A stretch of 64,000 nt of DNA from a virus. Its lineage: Duplodnaviria; Caudoviricetes. The notes under the pieces were generated by a model that worked only from the letters and a program-made list of their open reading frames with translations, had not been told where the DNA came from and ran no database searches. This document shows, piece after piece, positions 41,615 through 46,974 of the stretch (position 1 is its first letter; each line of letters starts with the position of its first letter). The stretch covers positions 64,001-128,000 of IMG/VR virus record IMGVR_UViG_3300013947_000022; one strand, given 5' to 3'. A program made the position numbers and the translations under genes.

Positions 41615-41736
41615 GCGCCTGTAACTCAGTGGTAGAGTAGCGGCCTTGGATAATAGCGTTTAGGCTTTAGCAAGTGCGAGACTTGCATTATCCCTTAAGC
41701 CGTCTGTCATGGGTTCGAATCCCATCAGGCGCACCA
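41615..41736 (+). tRNA. tRNA-Lys(TTT) interrupted by a 47-nt tRNA-like insert (41648-41694)
   Basis: GCGCCTG/CAGGCGC, A73, CCA, canonical D and T arms, anticodon stem GCGGC/GCCGT; CTT+TTAA gives CTTTTAA after removal. Confidence 0.8.
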
Positions 41737-41761
41737 ATAGTAGTTTTGTAATTTTGGTCTA

Positions 41762-41825
41762 TTCGACACTCACAGTAATTTTTAACACATATAATTGGAT
41801 TTGTATTTGTAAAAATAGTGTCGAG
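41762..41825 (+). ncRNA. TCGAC-ACAG stem RNA copy 2
   Basis: TCGACAC/GTGTCGA stem, ACAGTAA. Confidence 0.55.
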
Positions 41826-41853
41826 TATAATTAACAAAGAAAGGACAACAACT

Positions 41854-42504
41854 ATGTTAAAGCCAGAAGAAAAAATCATTCTTGACCTTTGTGGCGGTAC
41901 TGGTTCATGGTCTCGTCCTTGGCAGTTAAATGGGTATGATGTTCGTATCATTACTCTTCCTGAATATGATGTAAGGACTTTTAATCCTCCTGAGAATGTT
42001 TGGGGCATTCTTGCTGCTCCACCTTGCACAGAATTTAGCAATCTAAACTGTATCGCTGAGAATCGTCATCGTGACTTTGATGCTGGTATGGAAATTGTTA
42101 ATGCGTGTTTGCGTATTATCAAAGAGTGTAATCCTGTTTGGTGGGCTTTGGAAAACCCTCGTGGACATTTGCGTGATTTCCTCGGAACTCCTACTATGAC
42201 TTTCCAGCCTTGGGAATATGGAGACCCTTGGACTAAGGCTACGGATATTTGGGGTACTTTTAATATTCCTCCAAAAAAGTATTCTCGTTGGGAAGATGTG
42301 CCTAATAAGATTCCTCTGTATACTCGCAAGGGTAGAAACAAGCCCAATTTTGCTTTTCTTCATAAGTCTGCTTGGAAGAATATTCCTCAACTTAGTTGGC
42401 ATCATCAACCTGAAACAGATGCGGAATTTAGAGCAATGACTCCTCCTGCATTTGCATGGGCATTCTATGAAGCTAATAAACTGAAAGTTTATGAGGGTAA
42501 TTAA
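41854..42504 (+). CDS. Short C5-cytosine DNA methyltransferase-like protein
   Basis: ILDLCGGTGSWS, APPCTEFS, ALENP. Confidence 0.75.
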   Translation: MLKPEEKIILDLCGGTGSWSRPWQLNGYDVRIITLPEYDVRTFNPPENVWGILAAPPCTEFSNLNCIAENRHRDFDAGMEIVNACLRIIKECNPVWWALENPRGHLRDFLGTPTMTFQPWEYGDPWTKATDIWGTFNIPPKKYSRWEDVPNKIPLYTRKGRNKPNFAFLHKSAWKNIPQLSWHHQPETDAEFRAMTPPAFAWAFYEANKLKVYEGN

Positions 42505-42696
42505 ATGACAACCGAAGAAAAGTTGCGAGAGTATGCTGATTATTATATCACTCTTTCTCCAATTAAAAAGGTGCGATTTTTAGAAAAGAATTTTAATCTT
42601 GGTAAGTTAAAATGGTATCAACGTATTTGTCTTACAATTGAGTTTGCGATTGGTGACTTGAAAGATAAGACAAAAAATATTTTCAAAAAAGTTTAA
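42505..42696 (+). CDS. hypothetical protein
   Basis: SD GAGG; abuts previous gene. Confidence 0.5.
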   Translation: MTTEEKLREYADYYITLSPIKKVRFLEKNFNLGKLKWYQRICLTIEFAIGDLKDKTKNIFKKV

Positions 42697-42739
42697 AAAA
42701 CACTTGACAAACAAAACAAAGTGTGCTATACTTAGTACA

Positions 42740-43320
42740 CAATCAAGGAAGACGAATGGTTGGTGAGTCTCAAAACAACCCAACTACCAAATGATAATAA
42801 GTGCGTGAGCTTAAATGCTAACGAACGTAATGAAGAAGCGACCTCGACCTCATATATCGTATATATATGTTGTAAATTACAAGAGTGAGTCAAGCAGTAA
42901 TTACAGGAGACATTTAAGTAAGGATTAATCGCAGTCCTGCTTGTTATCATTACCATAGTCTTGGTGATAGACTATCAAAACATCACTCCCCCAACTCCCG
43001 TCCGAAGTCTTGGAGTAGAACGCAAGCGATGGGCGTTCGAAGCAGAAAATGAAAGGGAAGAACACGATATATAGTGAGATAACCTATCGGGGTGCTAATG
43101 TGATAGGAAGTCTAAGTTCGGGAAAATCGTGAGTGGAAATTCCACGAGGTAAGCGTAGCGAACTTACCTAAACAGCTTCTTAATTACTACGGTAATTAAG
43201 CATAACTCATACTACGGTTAGACTGTATGAGAATCCTACTCAATGAGAAGCTGAGAGGATTAAGGTGACTAACCCTCCGAATGGTTGGTGAAGAGAAAGT
43301 TCAATCCAACTACCAGATTC
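42740..43320 (+). ncRNA. Candidate large structured ncRNA
   Basis: Promoter TTGACA(42704)-17-TATACT, no credible ORF, many hairpins, flanked by repeated GAATGGTTGGTGA..CCAACTACCA motif. Confidence 0.45.
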
Positions 43321-43343
43321 TTTTACAAGGATTCATATACTCC

Positions 43344-43475
43344 TTCGACACTTACAGCAATTTTTACAAATGATATTTTTGAAATAACAATTGTAGAGTT
43401 CAATTCTCTATATAGCAACTCCTTACAGTCAGAGAGGAAACGCTATAGTCTGGTAGACCTGAAAAATGTGTCGAG
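43344..43475 (+). ncRNA. TCGAC-ACAGCAA stem RNA copy 3 with degenerate permuted tRNA-like domain
   Basis: TCGACAC/GTGTCGA; T-arm-like GTAGAG-TTCAATT-CTCTAT, ATAGC/GCTAT, D-like GTC-TGGTA-GAC. Confidence 0.6.
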
Positions 43476-43850
43476 TTTCTGACAATATGCCTTTTGTAGT
43501 ATAATGGCAGGAAAGTTTCTTCTCTCTTCCCTTAAAAGAGAAGTGGAGGGTGGGTGTCTTCGGATTCCCCTTACACGAATGGTTGGTGAGTGTTTAAATA
43601 ACCCAGCTACCATTAAATCCGTATGAGGTAACATAACAAGGGTTCTCATTAAAACTTGGAACTGTCCCGTCACCTTGTTTGTATAAGGGAATGAGTCAAG
43701 AGGTTATAGTTTACGGTCTATAACATTAAAGTTTAGCAATGAAAATGACCGAGATAATTGTGTGTAAGTCTGAAATAATGACTCTCCCCCAATCGAACCG
43801 AGGGCAGATATGTGTAAAGCTGGTCTGTCAGTAGTTGCTAAACTGAATAT

Positions 43851-45027: not shown

Positions 45028-45539
45028 TGAATAAAGAAATTGAACGCAAATGGCTTTTAAAGGGCGGAGAATTTAATTTCCCCGATGAAGCTACCGTTAT
45101 TAGAGAGTAGCTGTGGCAGTATTATCTCGAAGTTACTATTGATTCTGATAATCATATCGTCAGTGAAACTCGTATTCGCTACAAAGCTGGTTCTAATAAT
45201 GGAAAGCTAACCTATAAAATTGGCAATGGTCTTGAAAGAATTGAGCTTGAAGATAAGCTATTTTCTGCTCGAAAGTTTGTTGCTAAAATGAGTAGGGAAA
45301 CAGGTAAAAAGGCTATTAAAAAAGAGCGTTTTACAGTATTTATAGCTGGTCAAAAACCTGTTGAAGTTTGCATTGTTGATGATACTTGGGCTTACGCCGA
45401 GGTGGAATTTGACTCTGAGGCTGAGGCTAAGAGATATAAATTCCCATGGGCAGAAATGGTTGTGAGTGAGGTAACTGGTATTCCTAAATATAGTATGGCG
45501 GGATATTGGGTAAACACTCGTGAACAACAGCGAATCTAA
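45027..45539 (+). CDS. CYTH (triphosphate tunnel metalloenzyme) protein; TAG at codon 28 (45108)
   Basis: EIERKW, Q.YL, RIR, LTYK, R.ELE, KER, D, AEVEF in one frame with readthrough. Confidence 0.8.
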
Positions 45540-45560
45540 TAAAAACGGAGTTTTATTCTG

Positions 45561-45869
45561 ATGTTTGATTTTAAGAATCCCAAGCCAACAGTCTTTTGTA
45601 TTCATTGTAATAAGATGGTTGGTTATGATACAGATGTAGCAAAAGTTAATCTTACTATTCGAGGAGTTAATTTTTCCTATGATGAAAAGATTGCCTTTTG
45701 TGAAGAGTGCGGTGACGAAGTTTATGTTGCTGCATACAATGATATGAATGTCGATGCTCGTGAAAAAGCTTATAAGAATGAGCTTGAGCGTCGCAAAATT
45801 ACGCAGGAAATTTACGGAATTTCCTCAAAAAATTCTGAAAATTCTCTTGACAAAACAGAAGACCTGTGA
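45561..45869 (+). CDS. Zn-finger protein (MqsA/YgiT N-terminal-like)
   Basis: CIHC...IRGV......CEECGDEVY. Confidence 0.55.
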   Translation: MFDFKNPKPTVFCIHCNKMVGYDTDVAKVNLTIRGVNFSYDEKIAFCEECGDEVYVAAYNDMNVDAREKAYKNELERRKITQEIYGISSKNSENSLDKTEDL

Positions 45870-46094
45870 TATAATTAAGTCACAATCAAGAGAGAGAAGT
45901 TGCTCCCAAATGGTGTATTTAATAATCTTGTTGCTTTTTGTGGTGTTCTTCTAATTGTGTTGATTCTCAACTTTGTTCGTTTTCGTTTTAGTCTCCTTTC
46001 TTTATTTTGATAGGACCTCCTTTGTTTTGTGTAATGAATTGACGGTTGAGCACTTCTCTCTCTTGTTTGAGAAAAAATAAAGTCTAAAAAAGAC

Positions 46095-46123
46095 TTGACA
46101 AATTACAAAATGTGTGCTATAAT
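46095..46123 (+). promoter_or_regulatory. Consensus promoter driving the CCG-anticodon tRNA
   Basis: TTGACA-17-TATAAT with TG extension, 25 nt upstream of the tRNA. Confidence 0.85.
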
Positions 46124-46148
46124 TGGTACATAAACAAAAACTTTAAAT

Positions 46149-46222
46149 GCAGTAGTGTGGGAACGCTTACCCAGCCTACGCACCGAACGTAGGAGGTGCC
46201 AGTTGGAATCTGGTCTACTGCT
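46149..46222 (+). tRNA. tRNA with CCG anticodon and Gly-type body (proposed tRNA-Gly(CCG))
   Basis: GCAGTAG/CTACTGC, U73, D stem TGGG/CCCA, 6-bp stem CCTACG/CGTAGG around CACCGAA, T stem GCCAG/CTGGT identical to the tRNA-Gly(TCC) at 40099. Confidence 0.8.
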
Positions 46223-46381
46223 ATAAAACCAAGAACTTCGTGGTAGTAAAACACGATAAATAAATTAAACTGCCTCCTGTCGGTCAACCTCTTCGGAGGG
46301 TATGTTGGAGTTGTTGGGTGAGGAATCGAAAGTCCCAACCGAAGTTCTTGTTTTTCTTAAAACTTAAAAAGGAATTAATCA

Positions 46382-46800
46382 ATGTAGACGAAAATTTGTT
46401 CTTAATGCAAAATTGAACAACCAATCGAAAATTTTGGCTGGCGCAATAAAGAAAAACAATAGAGAAACGCTTATTGTAAAAGCTGTCACTTAAAAAAAGT
46501 TAAAGAAAATTATAACAAAAAGTGGCAAAAATAAATGAAATTAAATCTCATCTTTGCTGTGAGAAATGTGGTGAAACCAGACCTTATGTTTTAGATTTTC
46601 ATCATAAAAATCCCAGTGAAAAAAAGGATGCGGTAGCAAGAATGATAACAAATACTTCTAACATAAACAGTGTTTTAGAAGAAATAGCTAAATGTGCAGT
46701 ATTATGTGCTAATTGCCATCGAGAATTTCATTATTTGCAAAAACAAAATCCTGATTTTACTTTAGATGAATATTTATATGGTTGTGTAGCCAAGCGGTAA
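46382..46800 (+). pseudogene. Degenerate HNH endonuclease
   Basis: M*TKICS*C..., YCKSC, then frameshift to CEKCGE...LDFHH...CAVLCANCHREFH; contains in-frame TAA and a frameshift. Confidence 0.65.
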
Positions 46801-46974
46801 GGCAACGGGCTTTCTCAGAATCAGTTAAATGGGTTATATGATGTGATGGGGTTAAGTAGCATTGTATAAGTTCTGTTAGTAGGCTATCGGACGGTTAATC
46901 CGACAATGCAAGTGCAAGTCTTGCTTTTGGGGCCAGACCCCGTGATTTCGCAGGTTCGAGTCCTGCCACAACTG
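46780..46974 (+). tRNA. tRNA-Gln(TTG) interrupted by a 122-nt tRNA-like insert (46814-46935)
   Basis: Gln-type D arm GCCAAGCGGTAAGGC, stem ACGGG/CCCGT, T arm GCAGG-TTCGAGT-CCTGC, G73; CTTT+GAC gives CTTTGAC after removal. Confidence 0.8.

What the first reader, a model, noticed from the sequence alone, without database searches (positions are those of the whole stretch)
41615..46974. 'Matryoshka' tRNAs: tRNA-shaped introns nested in three anticodon loops
Seen: tRNA-Lys, -Leu and -Gln each carry an anticodon-loop insert that begins and ends with its own 7-bp acceptor-like stem, has a T arm abutting the 3' strand, and ends with a discriminator or discriminator plus CCA. Removing exactly that unit gives canonical loops CTTTTAA, CTCAAAA and CTTTGAC in all three cases. 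The inserts are too short for group I/II introns and show no clear BHB motif. Established: RNase P cuts 5' of an acceptor/T-arm helix, leaving a 3'-OH upstream; RNase Z-type cuts leave a 5'-P downstream; Rnl1 ligases seal 3'-OH/5'-P breaks in anticodon loops. Inference: tRNA-maturation nucleases excise the insert and the phage Rnl1 (14117) seals the halves, a tRNA splicing route I do not know to be described. Caveat: the 3' cut falls after CCA in two cases and after the discriminator in one, so the 3' nuclease is unresolved.
Basis: partly seen in the sequence, partly recalled or inferred. Interest (0 to 1): 0.93.

Follow-up and report, generated by a model that had tools for sequence, protein, structure and literature searches.

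The report
tRNA-shaped introns inside phage tRNAs
Three tRNA genes of this 215-kb uncultured phage are each split in the anticodon loop by a small insert that runs exactly from the first base to the 3' tail of a tRNA-like fold, which suggests that ordinary tRNA-trimming enzymes plus the phage RNA ligase splice it, a route shown for no tRNA so far.

Summary
tRNA-Lys(UUU), tRNA-Leu(CAA) and tRNA-Gln(UUG) carry inserts of 47, 65 and 122 nt. Each insert has a 7-bp closing stem, a 5-bp T stem with a 7-nt loop flush against that stem, and a tail of C, TCCA or GCCA. Removing each insert gives normal tRNAs.

Comparison takes this further. In 18 related jumbo-phage genomes I found 49 such genes, with 23 different closing-stem sequences, in tRNAs with ten different anticodons. 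The insert sits at four different loop positions. In about 18 of 22 hand-grouped types, the single-stranded bases on either side of the insert helix sum to 11, that is a 7-nt loop plus a 4-nt tail. Relatives carry uninterrupted tRNAs of the same anticodon at the same loci. One insert stands free beside an intact tRNA-Gln. Exon stems show compensatory changes, so the split genes are under selection.

No group I core, BHB motif, EndA or RtcB was found. An Rnl1-type ligase and a Pnk-like kinase are present.

The mechanism, RNase P cut, then RNase Z-like cut, then Rnl1 sealing, remains an inference, because no RNA data were available. The 3' nuclease is unresolved: tails include ACAA, ACCG and 1- or 3-nt forms.

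This scan has noted the same class on other phage DNA. The only publication I found calls such introns 'enigmatic' (Lak phages, 2019).

The parts
41615..41647 (+). tRNA-Lys(UUU) 5' exon, ending in loop bases CTT
   Evidence: Rfam tRNA 60.4 bits across the insert; ARAGORN on the spliced form
41648..41694 (+). 47-nt tRNA-shaped insert: 7-bp stem, small hairpin, T arm, tail C (no CCA)
   Evidence: Sequence; the minimum-free-energy fold is this structure, z -3.3; an identical copy in relative G001, whose exons differ
41695..41736 (+). tRNA-Lys 3' exon, starting TTAA and ending in an encoded CCA
43851..43885 (+). tRNA-Leu(CAA) 5' exon (type II tRNA), ending in loop bases CTC
   Evidence: ARAGORN intron mode; spliced form called Leu(caa)
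43886..43950 (+). 65-nt insert: acceptor stem, D arm, 3-bp stub, T arm, tail TCCA
   Evidence: Rfam tRNA 38.2 bits on the insert itself; minimum-free-energy cloverleaf; a 71-nt homologue in the tRNA-Leu of G002
43951..44002 (+). tRNA-Leu 3' exon, starting AAAA, with a long variable arm and an encoded CCA
46780..46813 (+). tRNA-Gln(UUG) 5' exon, ending in loop bases CTTT
   Evidence: Rfam tRNA 42.9 bits across the insert
46814..46935 (+). 122-nt insert: 7-bp stem with two G.U pairs, internal hairpins, T arm, tail GCCA
   Evidence: homologues nested in the tRNA-Gln of G002 and G003 and one free-standing copy in G001
46936..46974 (+). tRNA-Gln 3' exon, starting GAC, with no encoded CCA
14117..15502 (+). 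Rnl1-type ATP-dependent RNA ligase (461 aa), the candidate sealing enzyme
   Evidence: Pfam PF09511 at 43.6 bits; motifs KMDGS, EGWV and KIK with key residues invariant in 18 homologues; homologues in G000-G003 and G006
13155..14117 (+). Polynucleotide kinase-like protein next to the ligase; not needed if the ends are 3'-OH and 5'-P
   Evidence: Pfam AAA_33 at 1.2e-17; matches the kinase domain of the C. thermocellum Pnkp structures, which the PDB titles 'Metallophosphoesterase'

Best explanation
The three inserts are protein-spliced introns of a tRNA-shaped class. Each is a self-contained mimic of the top half of a tRNA: a 7-bp acceptor stem stacked on a 5-bp T stem with a 7-nt T loop, usually a D-like hairpin, then a discriminator base or a 4-nt NCCA-like tail.

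Proposed order of events, all inferred. (1) Host RNase P recognises the inner mimic and cuts at its first base. This leaves the outer 5' exon with a 3'-OH. (2) A metal-dependent 3' endonuclease cuts behind the tail, after N73 in the Lys insert and after A76 in the Leu and Gln inserts. The most likely enzyme is host RNase Z. The phage's own beta-CASP ribonuclease is an alternative. This cut leaves the 3' exon with a 5'-phosphate. (3) The two exons stay together through the outer tRNA's acceptor, D and T arms, so the product is a tRNA nicked in the anticodon loop. (4) The phage Rnl1-type ligase seals the nick and gives a normal 7-nt loop.

The inserts behave as sporadic, probably mobile elements. 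They can persist because the phage carries the ligase.
For: SHOWN
(a) Anatomy and exact boundaries in the window.
(b) The same rule holds in 49 genes of 18 related genomes, with 23 different stem sequences and ten host anticodons: Lys UUU, Leu CAA, Leu UAA, Gln UUG, Glu UUC, Ile UAU, Gly UCC, Pro UGG, Thr UGU... (nine listed; Leu counted twice gives the tenth family of hosts).
(c) The insert lies 1, 3, 4 or 5 nt into the loop. The 3' single strand shrinks to match, so the two sides sum to 11 nt (7-nt loop plus 4-nt tail) in about 18 of 22 hand-grouped types. The cut sites are therefore set by the insert, not by the outer tRNA.
(d) Split genes are under selection as tRNAs. Compensatory changes occur between split alleles: Lys D stem A10-T25 against G10-C25; Gln anticodon stem ACGGG/CCCGT against ACGGA/TCCGT; Leu anticodon stem GCAGA/TCTGC against AGAGA/TCTCT; Leu T stem GGGGG/CCCCC against GCGGG/CCCGC.
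(e) Insert stems are also maintained. The Gln insert has C3-G70 in one nested copy and T3-A70 in the free copy.
(f) Presence or absence varies at the same locus. Relatives carry uninterrupted Lys, Leu, Gln, Glu, Ile and Gly tRNAs there.
(g) The window's intact tRNA-Gly at 40099 is the orthologue of split tRNA-Gly genes in G003 and G006.
(h) In G001 the Gln-type insert stands free 12 nt upstream of an intact tRNA-Gln, like a gene in a tRNA cluster.
(i) The ligase is of the Rnl1 type and is present in all five clade genomes tested.
(j) No EndA, no RtcB, and no group I, group II or small-ribozyme hit in the inserts.
(k) Several outer tRNAs (Gln, Glu, Ile) lack an encoded CCA, and the phage has no CCA-adding enzyme. 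I infer that host RNase Z and the host CCA enzyme must act on these transcripts anyway.

FROM THE LITERATURE
Some RNase Z enzymes cut after N73 of CCA-less precursors and after CCA of CCA-containing ones. They need a matured 5' end and tolerate loss of the D, T or anticodon arm, but not of the acceptor stem (PMC7479834 abstract). T. maritima tRNase Z cuts after A76 (PMC1540738).

FROM ESTABLISHED KNOWLEDGE
RNase P leaves 3'-OH and 5'-P ends, as do metallo-beta-lactamase nucleases. T4 Rnl1 seals 3'-OH/5'-P nicks in anticodon loops.
Against: No RNA evidence of any kind exists, so splicing itself is unproven.

The identity and rule of the 3' cut are unclear. Four insert types have the tail ACAA and one has ACCG, yet the loop count still requires a cut 4 nt past the helix. 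A CCA-reading RNase Z does not obviously explain this.

Two tRNA-Gly genes (G006 with tail ACC|A, G003 with tail ACA) are one base short of the rule. They may carry single-base deletions.

The insert in the tRNA-Leu of G002 has two U.U mismatches in its closing stem.

B. subtilis RNase Z is strongly inhibited by CCA with Mg2+ (PMC7479834), and the host here is unknown.

T4 Rnl1 is known for nicks at 33|34. The nicks proposed here lie at 32|33 and at 34|35 to 36|37.

The ligase also occurs in G007, which has no tRNA-shaped insert, and in G006, which has only one. The sister clade was found through the ligase, so co-occurrence there is not an independent test.
Confidence: 0.6

Rival explanations
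1. Heal-and-seal splicing. An unidentified endonuclease, from phage or host and of the anticodon-nuclease or splicing-endonuclease kind, cuts both junctions and leaves 2',3'-cyclic phosphate and 5'-OH ends. The Pnk-like enzyme then heals the ends and Rnl1 seals them, as in T4 repair of PrrC-cleaved tRNA-Lys. On this view the tRNA-like shape serves some other purpose.
For: A Pnk-like kinase gene lies directly upstream of the ligase gene. This is the classic repair pair, and RNase P/Z ends would not need it.
Against: No EndA homologue was found and there is no BHB geometry. The cut positions move with the insert helix, not with the outer tRNA. The model does not explain why 49 inserts with 23 different stems all keep a 12-bp acceptor/T stack with tRNA-like ends.
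Confidence: 0.1
2. No splicing occurs. The inserts are mobile tRNA-like elements that have disabled these tRNA genes, or the genes are built to release tRNA halves and a tRNA-like small RNA. That RNA could serve as a decoy for anticodon nucleases or other tRNA-binding factors, rather than the locus yielding a decoding tRNA.
For: One insert homologue stands free in G001 with a perfectly paired 9-bp stem, so the small RNA may have a use of its own. Relatives manage with uninterrupted alleles. Some copies look damaged: the two tRNA-Gly genes and the Leu insert of G002.
Against: Exon stems of split alleles keep pairing through at least five compensatory double changes. The flanking bases always add up to a canonical 7-nt loop with U33 and a purine at 37, at whichever of four positions the insert sits. 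That is pointless if the halves are never joined. In the window the split genes are the only Lys(UUU), Leu(CAA) and Gln(UUG) genes that ARAGORN finds in the phage genome.
Confidence: 0.13
3. Same pathway, different 3' nuclease. The phage's own beta-CASP ribonuclease makes the cut behind the 4-nt tail, instead of host RNase Z. It is 481 aa, resembles CPSF73 and TTHA0252, and lies at bases 25201-26644 of the phage genome, outside the window.
For: The gene is conserved in both clades. It has the metallo-beta-lactamase fold, whose nucleases leave a 5'-phosphate (my knowledge). From my own knowledge, its eukaryotic relatives cut a few bases 3' of a helix and prefer to cut after CA. Most tails here end in CA (NCCA, and ACA in the tRNA-Gly of G003), and ACAA and ACCG tails are cut at the same distance.
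Against: This rests on circumstance only. The enzyme is a conserved gene of the whole group, so it is presumably also present in relatives with few split tRNAs; it was found in G006, which has one. The CA preference is recalled, not tested. The 1-nt tails fit RNase Z better.
Confidence: 0.12
4. The inserts are self-splicing or self-cleaving RNAs of an unknown small ribozyme class.
For: The same tRNA island holds a real group I intron in another tRNA (weak Rfam hit at 47775-47975), so RNA-catalysed splicing does occur in this phage.
Against: No Rfam ribozyme or intron family matches the inserts, even at E<=1. At 47-122 nt they are far below group I or II size. Apart from the T loop and the CCA-like tail, the 23 stem families share no sequence.
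Confidence: 0.03

Closest known systems
'Enigmatic' introns in Lak megaphage tRNAs (Devoto et al. 2019, PMC6784885)
   Same: These are phage tRNA genes with anticodon-loop introns. One intron 'itself may encode a tRNA'. Intron sequences are identical across cohorts, and presence or absence varies among related genomes.
   Different: That paper proposes no mechanism, no boundary rule and no ligase link. Those phages infect Prevotella and use another genetic code. I did not analyse the Lak sequences, so whether they belong to the same class is a lead, not a test.
Group I introns in bacterial and phage tRNA anticodon loops
   Same: Same location in the anticodon loop, including the 34|35 site. 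Sporadic, mobile-looking distribution. One lies in the same tRNA island of this phage (47775-47975).
   Different: Group I introns are over 200 nt with a catalytic core and splice themselves. The inserts here are 47-122 nt, have no core and would need protein nucleases and a ligase.
Archaeal and eukaryal tRNA introns (BHB motif, EndA/TSEN, then RtcB or Trl1)
   Same: Protein-dependent excision followed by ligation of two exons that the tRNA body holds together.
   Different: The ends there are 2',3'-cyclic phosphate and 5'-OH. Recognition is through a bulge-helix-bulge or by measuring from the tRNA body, mostly at 37|38. Here there is no BHB, no EndA and no RtcB, and the insert itself defines sites at four loop positions.
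T4 PrrC / Pnk / Rnl1 tRNA-Lys restriction and repair
   Same: An Rnl1-type ligase next to a polynucleotide kinase, acting on a tRNA broken in its anticodon loop.
   Different: In T4 a host defence nuclease makes the break at 33|34 with cyclic-phosphate ends, and repair restores a tRNA that was whole. Here the break would be a programmed step in making the phage's own tRNAs.
tRNA-like processing signals (MALAT1 mascRNA, plant mitochondrial t-elements, mitochondrial tRNA punctuation)
   Same: A tRNA-shaped element inside a longer transcript recruits RNase P and RNase Z to define the ends of the flanking RNAs (my knowledge).
   Different: In those cases the flanking RNAs are released, not rejoined. 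None lies inside another tRNA.

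Membership tests
Group I intron (RF00028) | Catalytic core P3-P9, length over about 200 nt | tested here: not met
   An Rfam scan of 39500-48500 at E<=1 finds group I only at 47775-47975, not in the three inserts. 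The inserts are 47, 65 and 122 nt.
Archaeal/eukaryal endonuclease-spliced tRNA intron | Bulge-helix-bulge at the splice sites, and an EndA/TSEN-type endonuclease available | tested here: not met
   The two junctions lie opposite each other at the base of the insert helix, with 1-5 nt on one side and 5-10 nt on the other. They are not two 3-nt bulges 4 bp apart. PF01974 is absent from five clade genomes.
tRNA (RF00005), applied to the inserts | Full cloverleaf with an anticodon arm that scores above the Rfam threshold | tested here: inconclusive
   The Leu insert scores 38.2 bits against a cut-off of 29, but has a 3-bp stub with a 4-nt loop in place of the anticodon arm. The Lys and Gln inserts give no hit of their own. 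They are tRNA-like, not tRNAs.
RNase P substrate (pre-tRNA or minihelix) | A 7-bp acceptor stem stacked on a 5-bp T stem with a 7-nt T loop; the base at -1 not paired with N73; often a 3' NCCA | tested here: met
   48 of the 49 inserts score 12/12 or 11/12 pairs in this exact geometry; the G002 tRNA-Leu insert reaches 11/12 only in a register that its homologue in the window argues against (5/7 in the homologous one). In the first clade I checked by eye that -1 and N73 cannot form a Watson-Crick pair in any type; the window's Gln insert can form a U.G there. Cleavage itself cannot be tested here.
RNase Z substrate | Acceptor stem with a cut after N73; CCA blocks some enzymes, others cut after A76 | tested here: inconclusive
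   A 1-nt tail (Lys) fits a cut after N73. NCCA tails fit enzymes of the T. maritima or archaeal type. ACAA, ACCG and 3-nt tails do not fit simply. The host enzyme is unknown.
Rnl1-type RNA ligase (PF09511) | Nucleotidyltransferase motifs I (KxDG), IV and V; family HMM score above the cut-off | tested here: met
   43.6 bits against a cut-off of 28.3. KMDGS, EGWV and KIK are present. K148, D150, G151, E284, G285, K301 and K303 are invariant in 18 homologues. About 25% identical to T4-type RnlA.
Rnl1-type RNA ligase (PF09511) | C-terminal domain that confers specificity for tRNA anticodon loops | not tested
   No sequence hit to solved structures. No structure prediction was run.
Mobile (homing) intron | Presence or absence varies at one locus; an endonuclease is encoded in or beside the intron | tested here: inconclusive
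   Variation is clear, but most uninterrupted alleles are different tRNA lineages, not empty sites. No ORF lies in the three inserts. A small HNH-like ORF, apparently the remnant of a larger gene, lies just upstream of tRNA-Gln (46522-46797). Intact 398-411 aa ORFs with HNH-type motifs (read by eye) lie upstream of it in G002 and G003.

The most novel reading that the evidence does not exclude
This is a third route of tRNA splicing, beside self-splicing group I introns and BHB/endonuclease introns. The intron is a miniature tRNA, so the universal tRNA end-processing enzymes (RNase P at its 5' end, an RNase Z-like or phage beta-CASP nuclease at its 3' tail) cut it out. A phage Rnl1 ligase then joins the 3'-OH and 5'-P exons. 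This would give phage RNA ligases a routine role in making tRNAs. It would also explain how such selfish tRNA-shaped elements can colonise anticodon loops of large phages.
Probability: 0.55. Interest if true: 0.9.

Novelty: categorically new. Interest (0 to 1): 0.86.

Why it matters
If the inference holds, bacteria-infecting viruses have a protein-dependent tRNA splicing pathway built from enzymes already present in the infected cell plus one phage ligase. The intron's own shape would be the only splicing signal.

That would add a new class to the short list of intron types. It would give a constitutive role to phage Rnl1 ligases, which so far are understood only as repair enzymes against anticodon nucleases. 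It would also explain the 'enigmatic' tRNA introns reported in megaphages in 2019.

Standard tRNA finders miss or misname such genes. ARAGORN without intron mode missed all three here, and with intron mode it named the anticodons wrongly. tRNA sets of large phages are therefore likely under-counted.

The design is compact and could be moved to other RNAs. A 47-nt minihelix could mark any RNA for precise excision, which could be useful for RNA engineering.

Tried and rejected
(1) RNA evidence. Two run searches listed no RNA holder. Laying X1, X18, X19 and X20 on 41100-47800 showed that the contigs of X1 carry the inserts unchanged and have no insert-less joint. The RNA-labelled runs hold only relatives or other organisms' tRNAs. 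The 'joints' near 43877-43971 replace the region with other letters, so they are unrelated tRNA-Leu genes, not spliced forms. Nothing can be said about splicing either way.

(2) megablast and blastn of the region, and of split genes, against cultured phages gave no match. The cultured phage with the closest ligase, Bacillus phage vB_BauM_KLEB27-3 at 31.5% identity, has two ordinary tRNAs and no split one.

(3) An exact-pattern scan of IMG/VR for the T arm shared by four insert types mostly returned ordinary phage tRNAs and free 46-nt minihelices. The only nested cases were in G001 and G003, which were already known.

(4) Literature. Eight searches found no paper describing RNase P/Z-plus-ligase splicing or tRNA-shaped introns, apart from the 2019 Lak paper.

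(5) Considered and dropped: a reading in which the 3' cut always follows N73 and CCA belongs to the exon. It works only for the tRNA-Gly of G006 and fails for Leu, Gln, Glu and Ile.

(6) Considered and dropped: a 5'-to-3' exonuclease trimming the 3' exon. It cannot account for 2 to 6 loop bases being retained.

(7) ARAGORN's intron sizes were wrong by 2 nt for three genes (two Thr, one Lys). I corrected them by requiring a 5-bp anticodon stem.

(8) No complex prediction or structure prediction was run.

Full report
WHAT IS THERE

The window is bases 64001-128000 of a 215,374-bp IMG/VR virus record that CheckV estimates to be 99% complete. Default ARAGORN sees only three tRNAs in the window: Gly, 'Arg' and Ile. 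The Rfam tRNA model, however, spans 41615-41733 (60.4 bits) and 46780-46974 (42.9 bits) with long insertions in the anticodon loop. It also hits 43886-43947 (38.2 bits), which turns out to be the insert of a third gene. ARAGORN with introns allowed finds all three split genes.

Read from the sequence, the genes are as follows.
- tRNA-Lys is 41615-41736, with a 47-nt insert at 41648-41694.
- tRNA-Leu is 43851-44002, with a 65-nt insert at 43886-43950.
- tRNA-Gln is 46780-46974, with a 122-nt insert at 46814-46935.

Each insert opens and closes with a 7-bp stem. The 3' strand of that stem directly follows a 5-bp stem with a 7-nt loop. The tail is C, TCCA or GCCA. Cutting out exactly these units gives sequences that ARAGORN calls tRNA-Lys(ttt), tRNA-Leu(caa) and tRNA-Gln(ttg), with loops CTTTTAA, CTCAAAA and CTTTGAC.

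IS IT MORE THAN CHANCE, AND IS IT CONSERVED?

Using a neighbouring methylase-like gene and the ligase gene as probes, I fetched relatives. I analysed their tRNA islands.

In six genomes of the window's own clade and twelve of a sister clade (ligase 45% identical), 49 tRNA genes carry an insert that scores 11 or 12 of 12 possible pairs in the fixed geometry: 7-bp closing stem, 5-bp stem and 7-nt loop flush with it. For one of them, the G002 tRNA-Leu insert, that score needs a register that its homologue in the window argues against. The closing stems have 23 different sequences. The host tRNAs are Lys, Leu(CAA), Leu(UAA), Gln, Glu, Ile(UAU), Gly, Pro and Thr.

ARAGORN 'intron' calls that are really group I introns, a conserved 120-nt tRNA-like RNA, or Y-like RNAs score 10 or fewer in the same test. 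About 150 tRNA hits in 13 unrelated virus records contained no gene longer than 95 nt.

THE KEY REGULARITY

Fix the outer anticodon stem by its own 5-bp pairing. Let x be the number of bases between that stem and the first base of the insert helix, and y the number of bases between the last base of the helix and the returning stem.

x takes the values 1, 3, 4 and 5, which correspond to insertion at 32|33, 34|35, 35|36 and 36|37. In about 18 of 22 insert types, which I grouped by hand, x + y = 11. That is a 7-nt loop with U33 and a purine at position 37, plus a 4-nt tail.

Because y shrinks as x grows, the boundaries are set by the insert's own helix and not by the outer tRNA. This argues against an enzyme that measures from the tRNA body or reads a bulge-helix-bulge. 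It is what one expects if the excised unit is defined as 'a mature tRNA, from base 1 to base 76'.

THE SPLIT GENES ARE FUNCTIONAL, AND THE INSERTS ARE SPORADIC

Split alleles in different genomes differ by compensatory double substitutions in exon stems:
- Lys D stem: A10-T25 against G10-C25.
- Gln anticodon stem: ACGGG/CCCGT against ACGGA/TCCGT.
- Leu anticodon stem: GCAGA/TCTGC against AGAGA/TCTCT.
- Leu T stem: GGGGG/CCCCC against GCGGG/CCCGC.

Insert stems also co-vary. In the Gln-type insert, position 3-70 is C-G in one nested copy and T-A in the free copy.

At the same genomic positions other relatives carry uninterrupted tRNAs of the same anticodon. Most of these are different tRNA lineages. 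The window's own intact tRNA-Gly (40099) is an exception: it is the orthologue of split tRNA-Gly genes in G003 and G006.

The 47-nt Lys insert is identical in G000 and G001, while their exons differ at six positions.

In G001 the homologue of the Gln insert is not nested. It stands free, closed by a perfect 9-bp stem, 12 nt upstream of an intact tRNA-Gln. So the same module can be a neighbour in a tRNA cluster or an intron in a tRNA. That is natural if the same enzymes process it in both places.

WHAT IT IS NOT

No group I, group II or small-ribozyme family matches the inserts, even at E<=1. The inserts are far too short for self-splicing introns. There is no BHB geometry. The clade has no EndA, no RtcB and no CCA-adding enzyme.

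WHAT THE PHAGE BRINGS

The gene at 14117-15502 encodes a 461-aa ligase of the Rnl1 family. Pfam PF09511 scores 43.6 bits. It has motif I (KMDGS), motif IV (EGWV) and motif V (KIK). The key residues of these motifs are invariant in 18 homologues. It is about 25% identical to T4-type RnlA and 31.5% identical to the ligase of a Bacillus jumbo phage.

The gene upstream (13155-14117) encodes a kinase like the kinase domain of C. thermocellum Pnkp.

Outside the window, at 25201-26644 of the genome, the phage encodes a 481-aa beta-CASP ribonuclease related to TTHA0252, CPSF73, Ysh1 and IntS11. It is conserved in both clades.

MECHANISM (INFERRED)

RNase P cuts 5' of an acceptor/T-arm stack and leaves a 3'-OH upstream. 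Metallo-beta-lactamase nucleases such as RNase Z and beta-CASP enzymes leave a 5'-phosphate downstream. Rnl1 seals 3'-OH/5'-P nicks in anticodon loops. All of this is established knowledge.

The exons would stay paired through the outer tRNA body, so the intermediate is exactly a tRNA with a nicked anticodon loop.

This has a precedent. Methanomicrobial RNase Z enzymes cut after N73 in CCA-less precursors and after CCA in CCA-containing ones. They require a matured 5' end and tolerate loss of any arm except the acceptor stem (PMC7479834). T. maritima tRNase Z cuts after A76 (PMC1540738).

Several outer tRNAs (Gln, Glu, Ile) lack an encoded CCA, and the phage has no CCA enzyme. I infer that the host's RNase Z/CCA route must handle these transcripts anyway.

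OPEN PROBLEMS

(i) Nothing was measured. No RNA run holds this phage.

(ii) In the sister clade the 4-nt tail is ACAA in four insert types (two Pro, two Lys) and ACCG in one, yet the loop count still demands a cut after the fourth base. Either the 3' enzyme measures distance rather than reading CCA, or another nuclease acts, such as the phage beta-CASP enzyme. From my own knowledge, the eukaryotic relatives of that enzyme cut a few bases 3' of a helix and prefer to cut after CA.

(iii) Two tRNA-Gly genes (G006 with ACC|A, G003 with ACA) are one base short. Each looks like a single-base deletion and may be a decaying gene.

(iv) The insert in the tRNA-Leu of G002 has two U.U mismatches in its closing stem.

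(v) The ligase also occurs in relatives with one split tRNA (G006) or none (G007). The sister clade was found through the ligase. The association is therefore compatible with the model but not tested.

COMPARISON WITH WHAT IS KNOWN

The only publication I found that touches this is the Lak megaphage paper. It reports highly conserved tRNA introns, one of which 'itself may encode a tRNA', and calls them enigmatic (PMC6784885). Eight full-text searches found no proposal or demonstration of splicing by tRNA end-processing enzymes plus a ligase.

Earlier notes of this scan describe the same class on several other phage genomes, some with an HNH gene inside the tRNA-shaped shell. I did not check those, and they are not independent evidence.

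The contribution here is threefold: the x + y = 11 rule across four loop positions and 23 stem families; the compensatory changes in exons; and the free-standing copy of one insert. Two further points are the non-CCA 4-nt tails and the conserved phage beta-CASP nuclease as a second candidate for the 3' cut.

VERDICT

I put 0.6 on excision by RNase P plus a 3' metallo-nuclease, followed by Rnl1 sealing. I put about 0.1 on heal-and-seal after a different endonuclease, about 0.13 on no splicing at all, and 0.03 on a ribozyme.

In kind it lies outside the two known tRNA intron classes.

Noticed in passing
window 41233-41365, 43345-43482, 44040-44185; the motif alone at 41766-41835, 46994-47065, 47450-47515, 47623-47715: A repeated module TCGAC-NNN-NACAGCAA ... 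NNN-GTCGAG has a stem that co-varies between copies. Three copies enclose circularly permuted tRNA domains (T arm, closed acceptor stem, D arm). One gives a weak Rfam YrlA (Y RNA-like) hit at 44090-44161. Earlier notes link these modules to a Ro60-like protein in this genome.
   Followed up: partly
window 47751-48042: A tRNA 5' half is followed by a weak group I intron hit (RF00028, 34.8 bits, 47775-47975). Relatives have an uninterrupted tRNA(CUA) or one with a 219-222 nt intron. This is an amber-suppressor tRNA whose group I intron is present in some genomes and absent in others.
   Followed up: partly
window 45027-45539: A 170-codon ORF begins MNKEIERKWLL (an ExExK motif as in CYTH proteins, by eye). 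It has a single in-frame TAG at 45108-45110. That would fit read-through by the phage's tRNA(CUA).
   Followed up: partly
G000:C1:25201-26644 (locus L023:1702-3144), outside the window: A phage-encoded beta-CASP ribonuclease of 481 aa resembles TTHA0252, CPSF73, Ysh1 and IntS11 (E 1e-25 to 1e-32 against solved structures). It is conserved in both clades.
   Followed up: partly
window 46380-46800: A small HNH-like ORF (46522-46797, with CxxC...HH...CxxCH read by eye) ends inside the first bases of tRNA-Gln. The sequence upstream of it looks like the frameshifted rest of a larger gene. G002 and G003 have intact 398-411 aa ORFs with HNH-type motifs upstream of their split tRNA-Gln.
   Followed up: partly
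L011 6770-6889, L012 5925-6044, L022 9029-9148 and the sister clade (119-nt ARAGORN 'Val i(30,46)' calls): A conserved RNA of about 120 nt has a tRNA-like acceptor stem and T arm and ends in TCCA, but its interior is not that of a tRNA. A probe for its T arm and acceptor end found nothing in the window.
   Followed up: no
L001 6879-6991, L002 7064-7176, L003 6879-6991; L003 1017-1089: RAGATH-33 (137-138 bits) and RAGATH-18 (73 bits) RNAs lie in the tRNA islands of relatives. The window's corresponding stretch after the methylase-like gene (about 42720-42830) stays below the Rfam threshold.
   Followed up: no
L035, L037, L045, L053, L055, L096, L100 (IMG/VR records of about 35-53 kb, all classed as proviruses): Free-standing 46-nt minihelices have a 7-bp stem, a small hairpin and the T arm GCAAG-TGCAAG-N-CTTGC. 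Their architecture is the same as the Lys insert. They are followed by TTTGCA rather than CCA.
   Followed up: no
window 46149-46222: ARAGORN calls a tRNA 'Arg(ccg)' behind its own consensus promoter. It is not found by the Rfam tRNA model at the gathering score.
   Followed up: no
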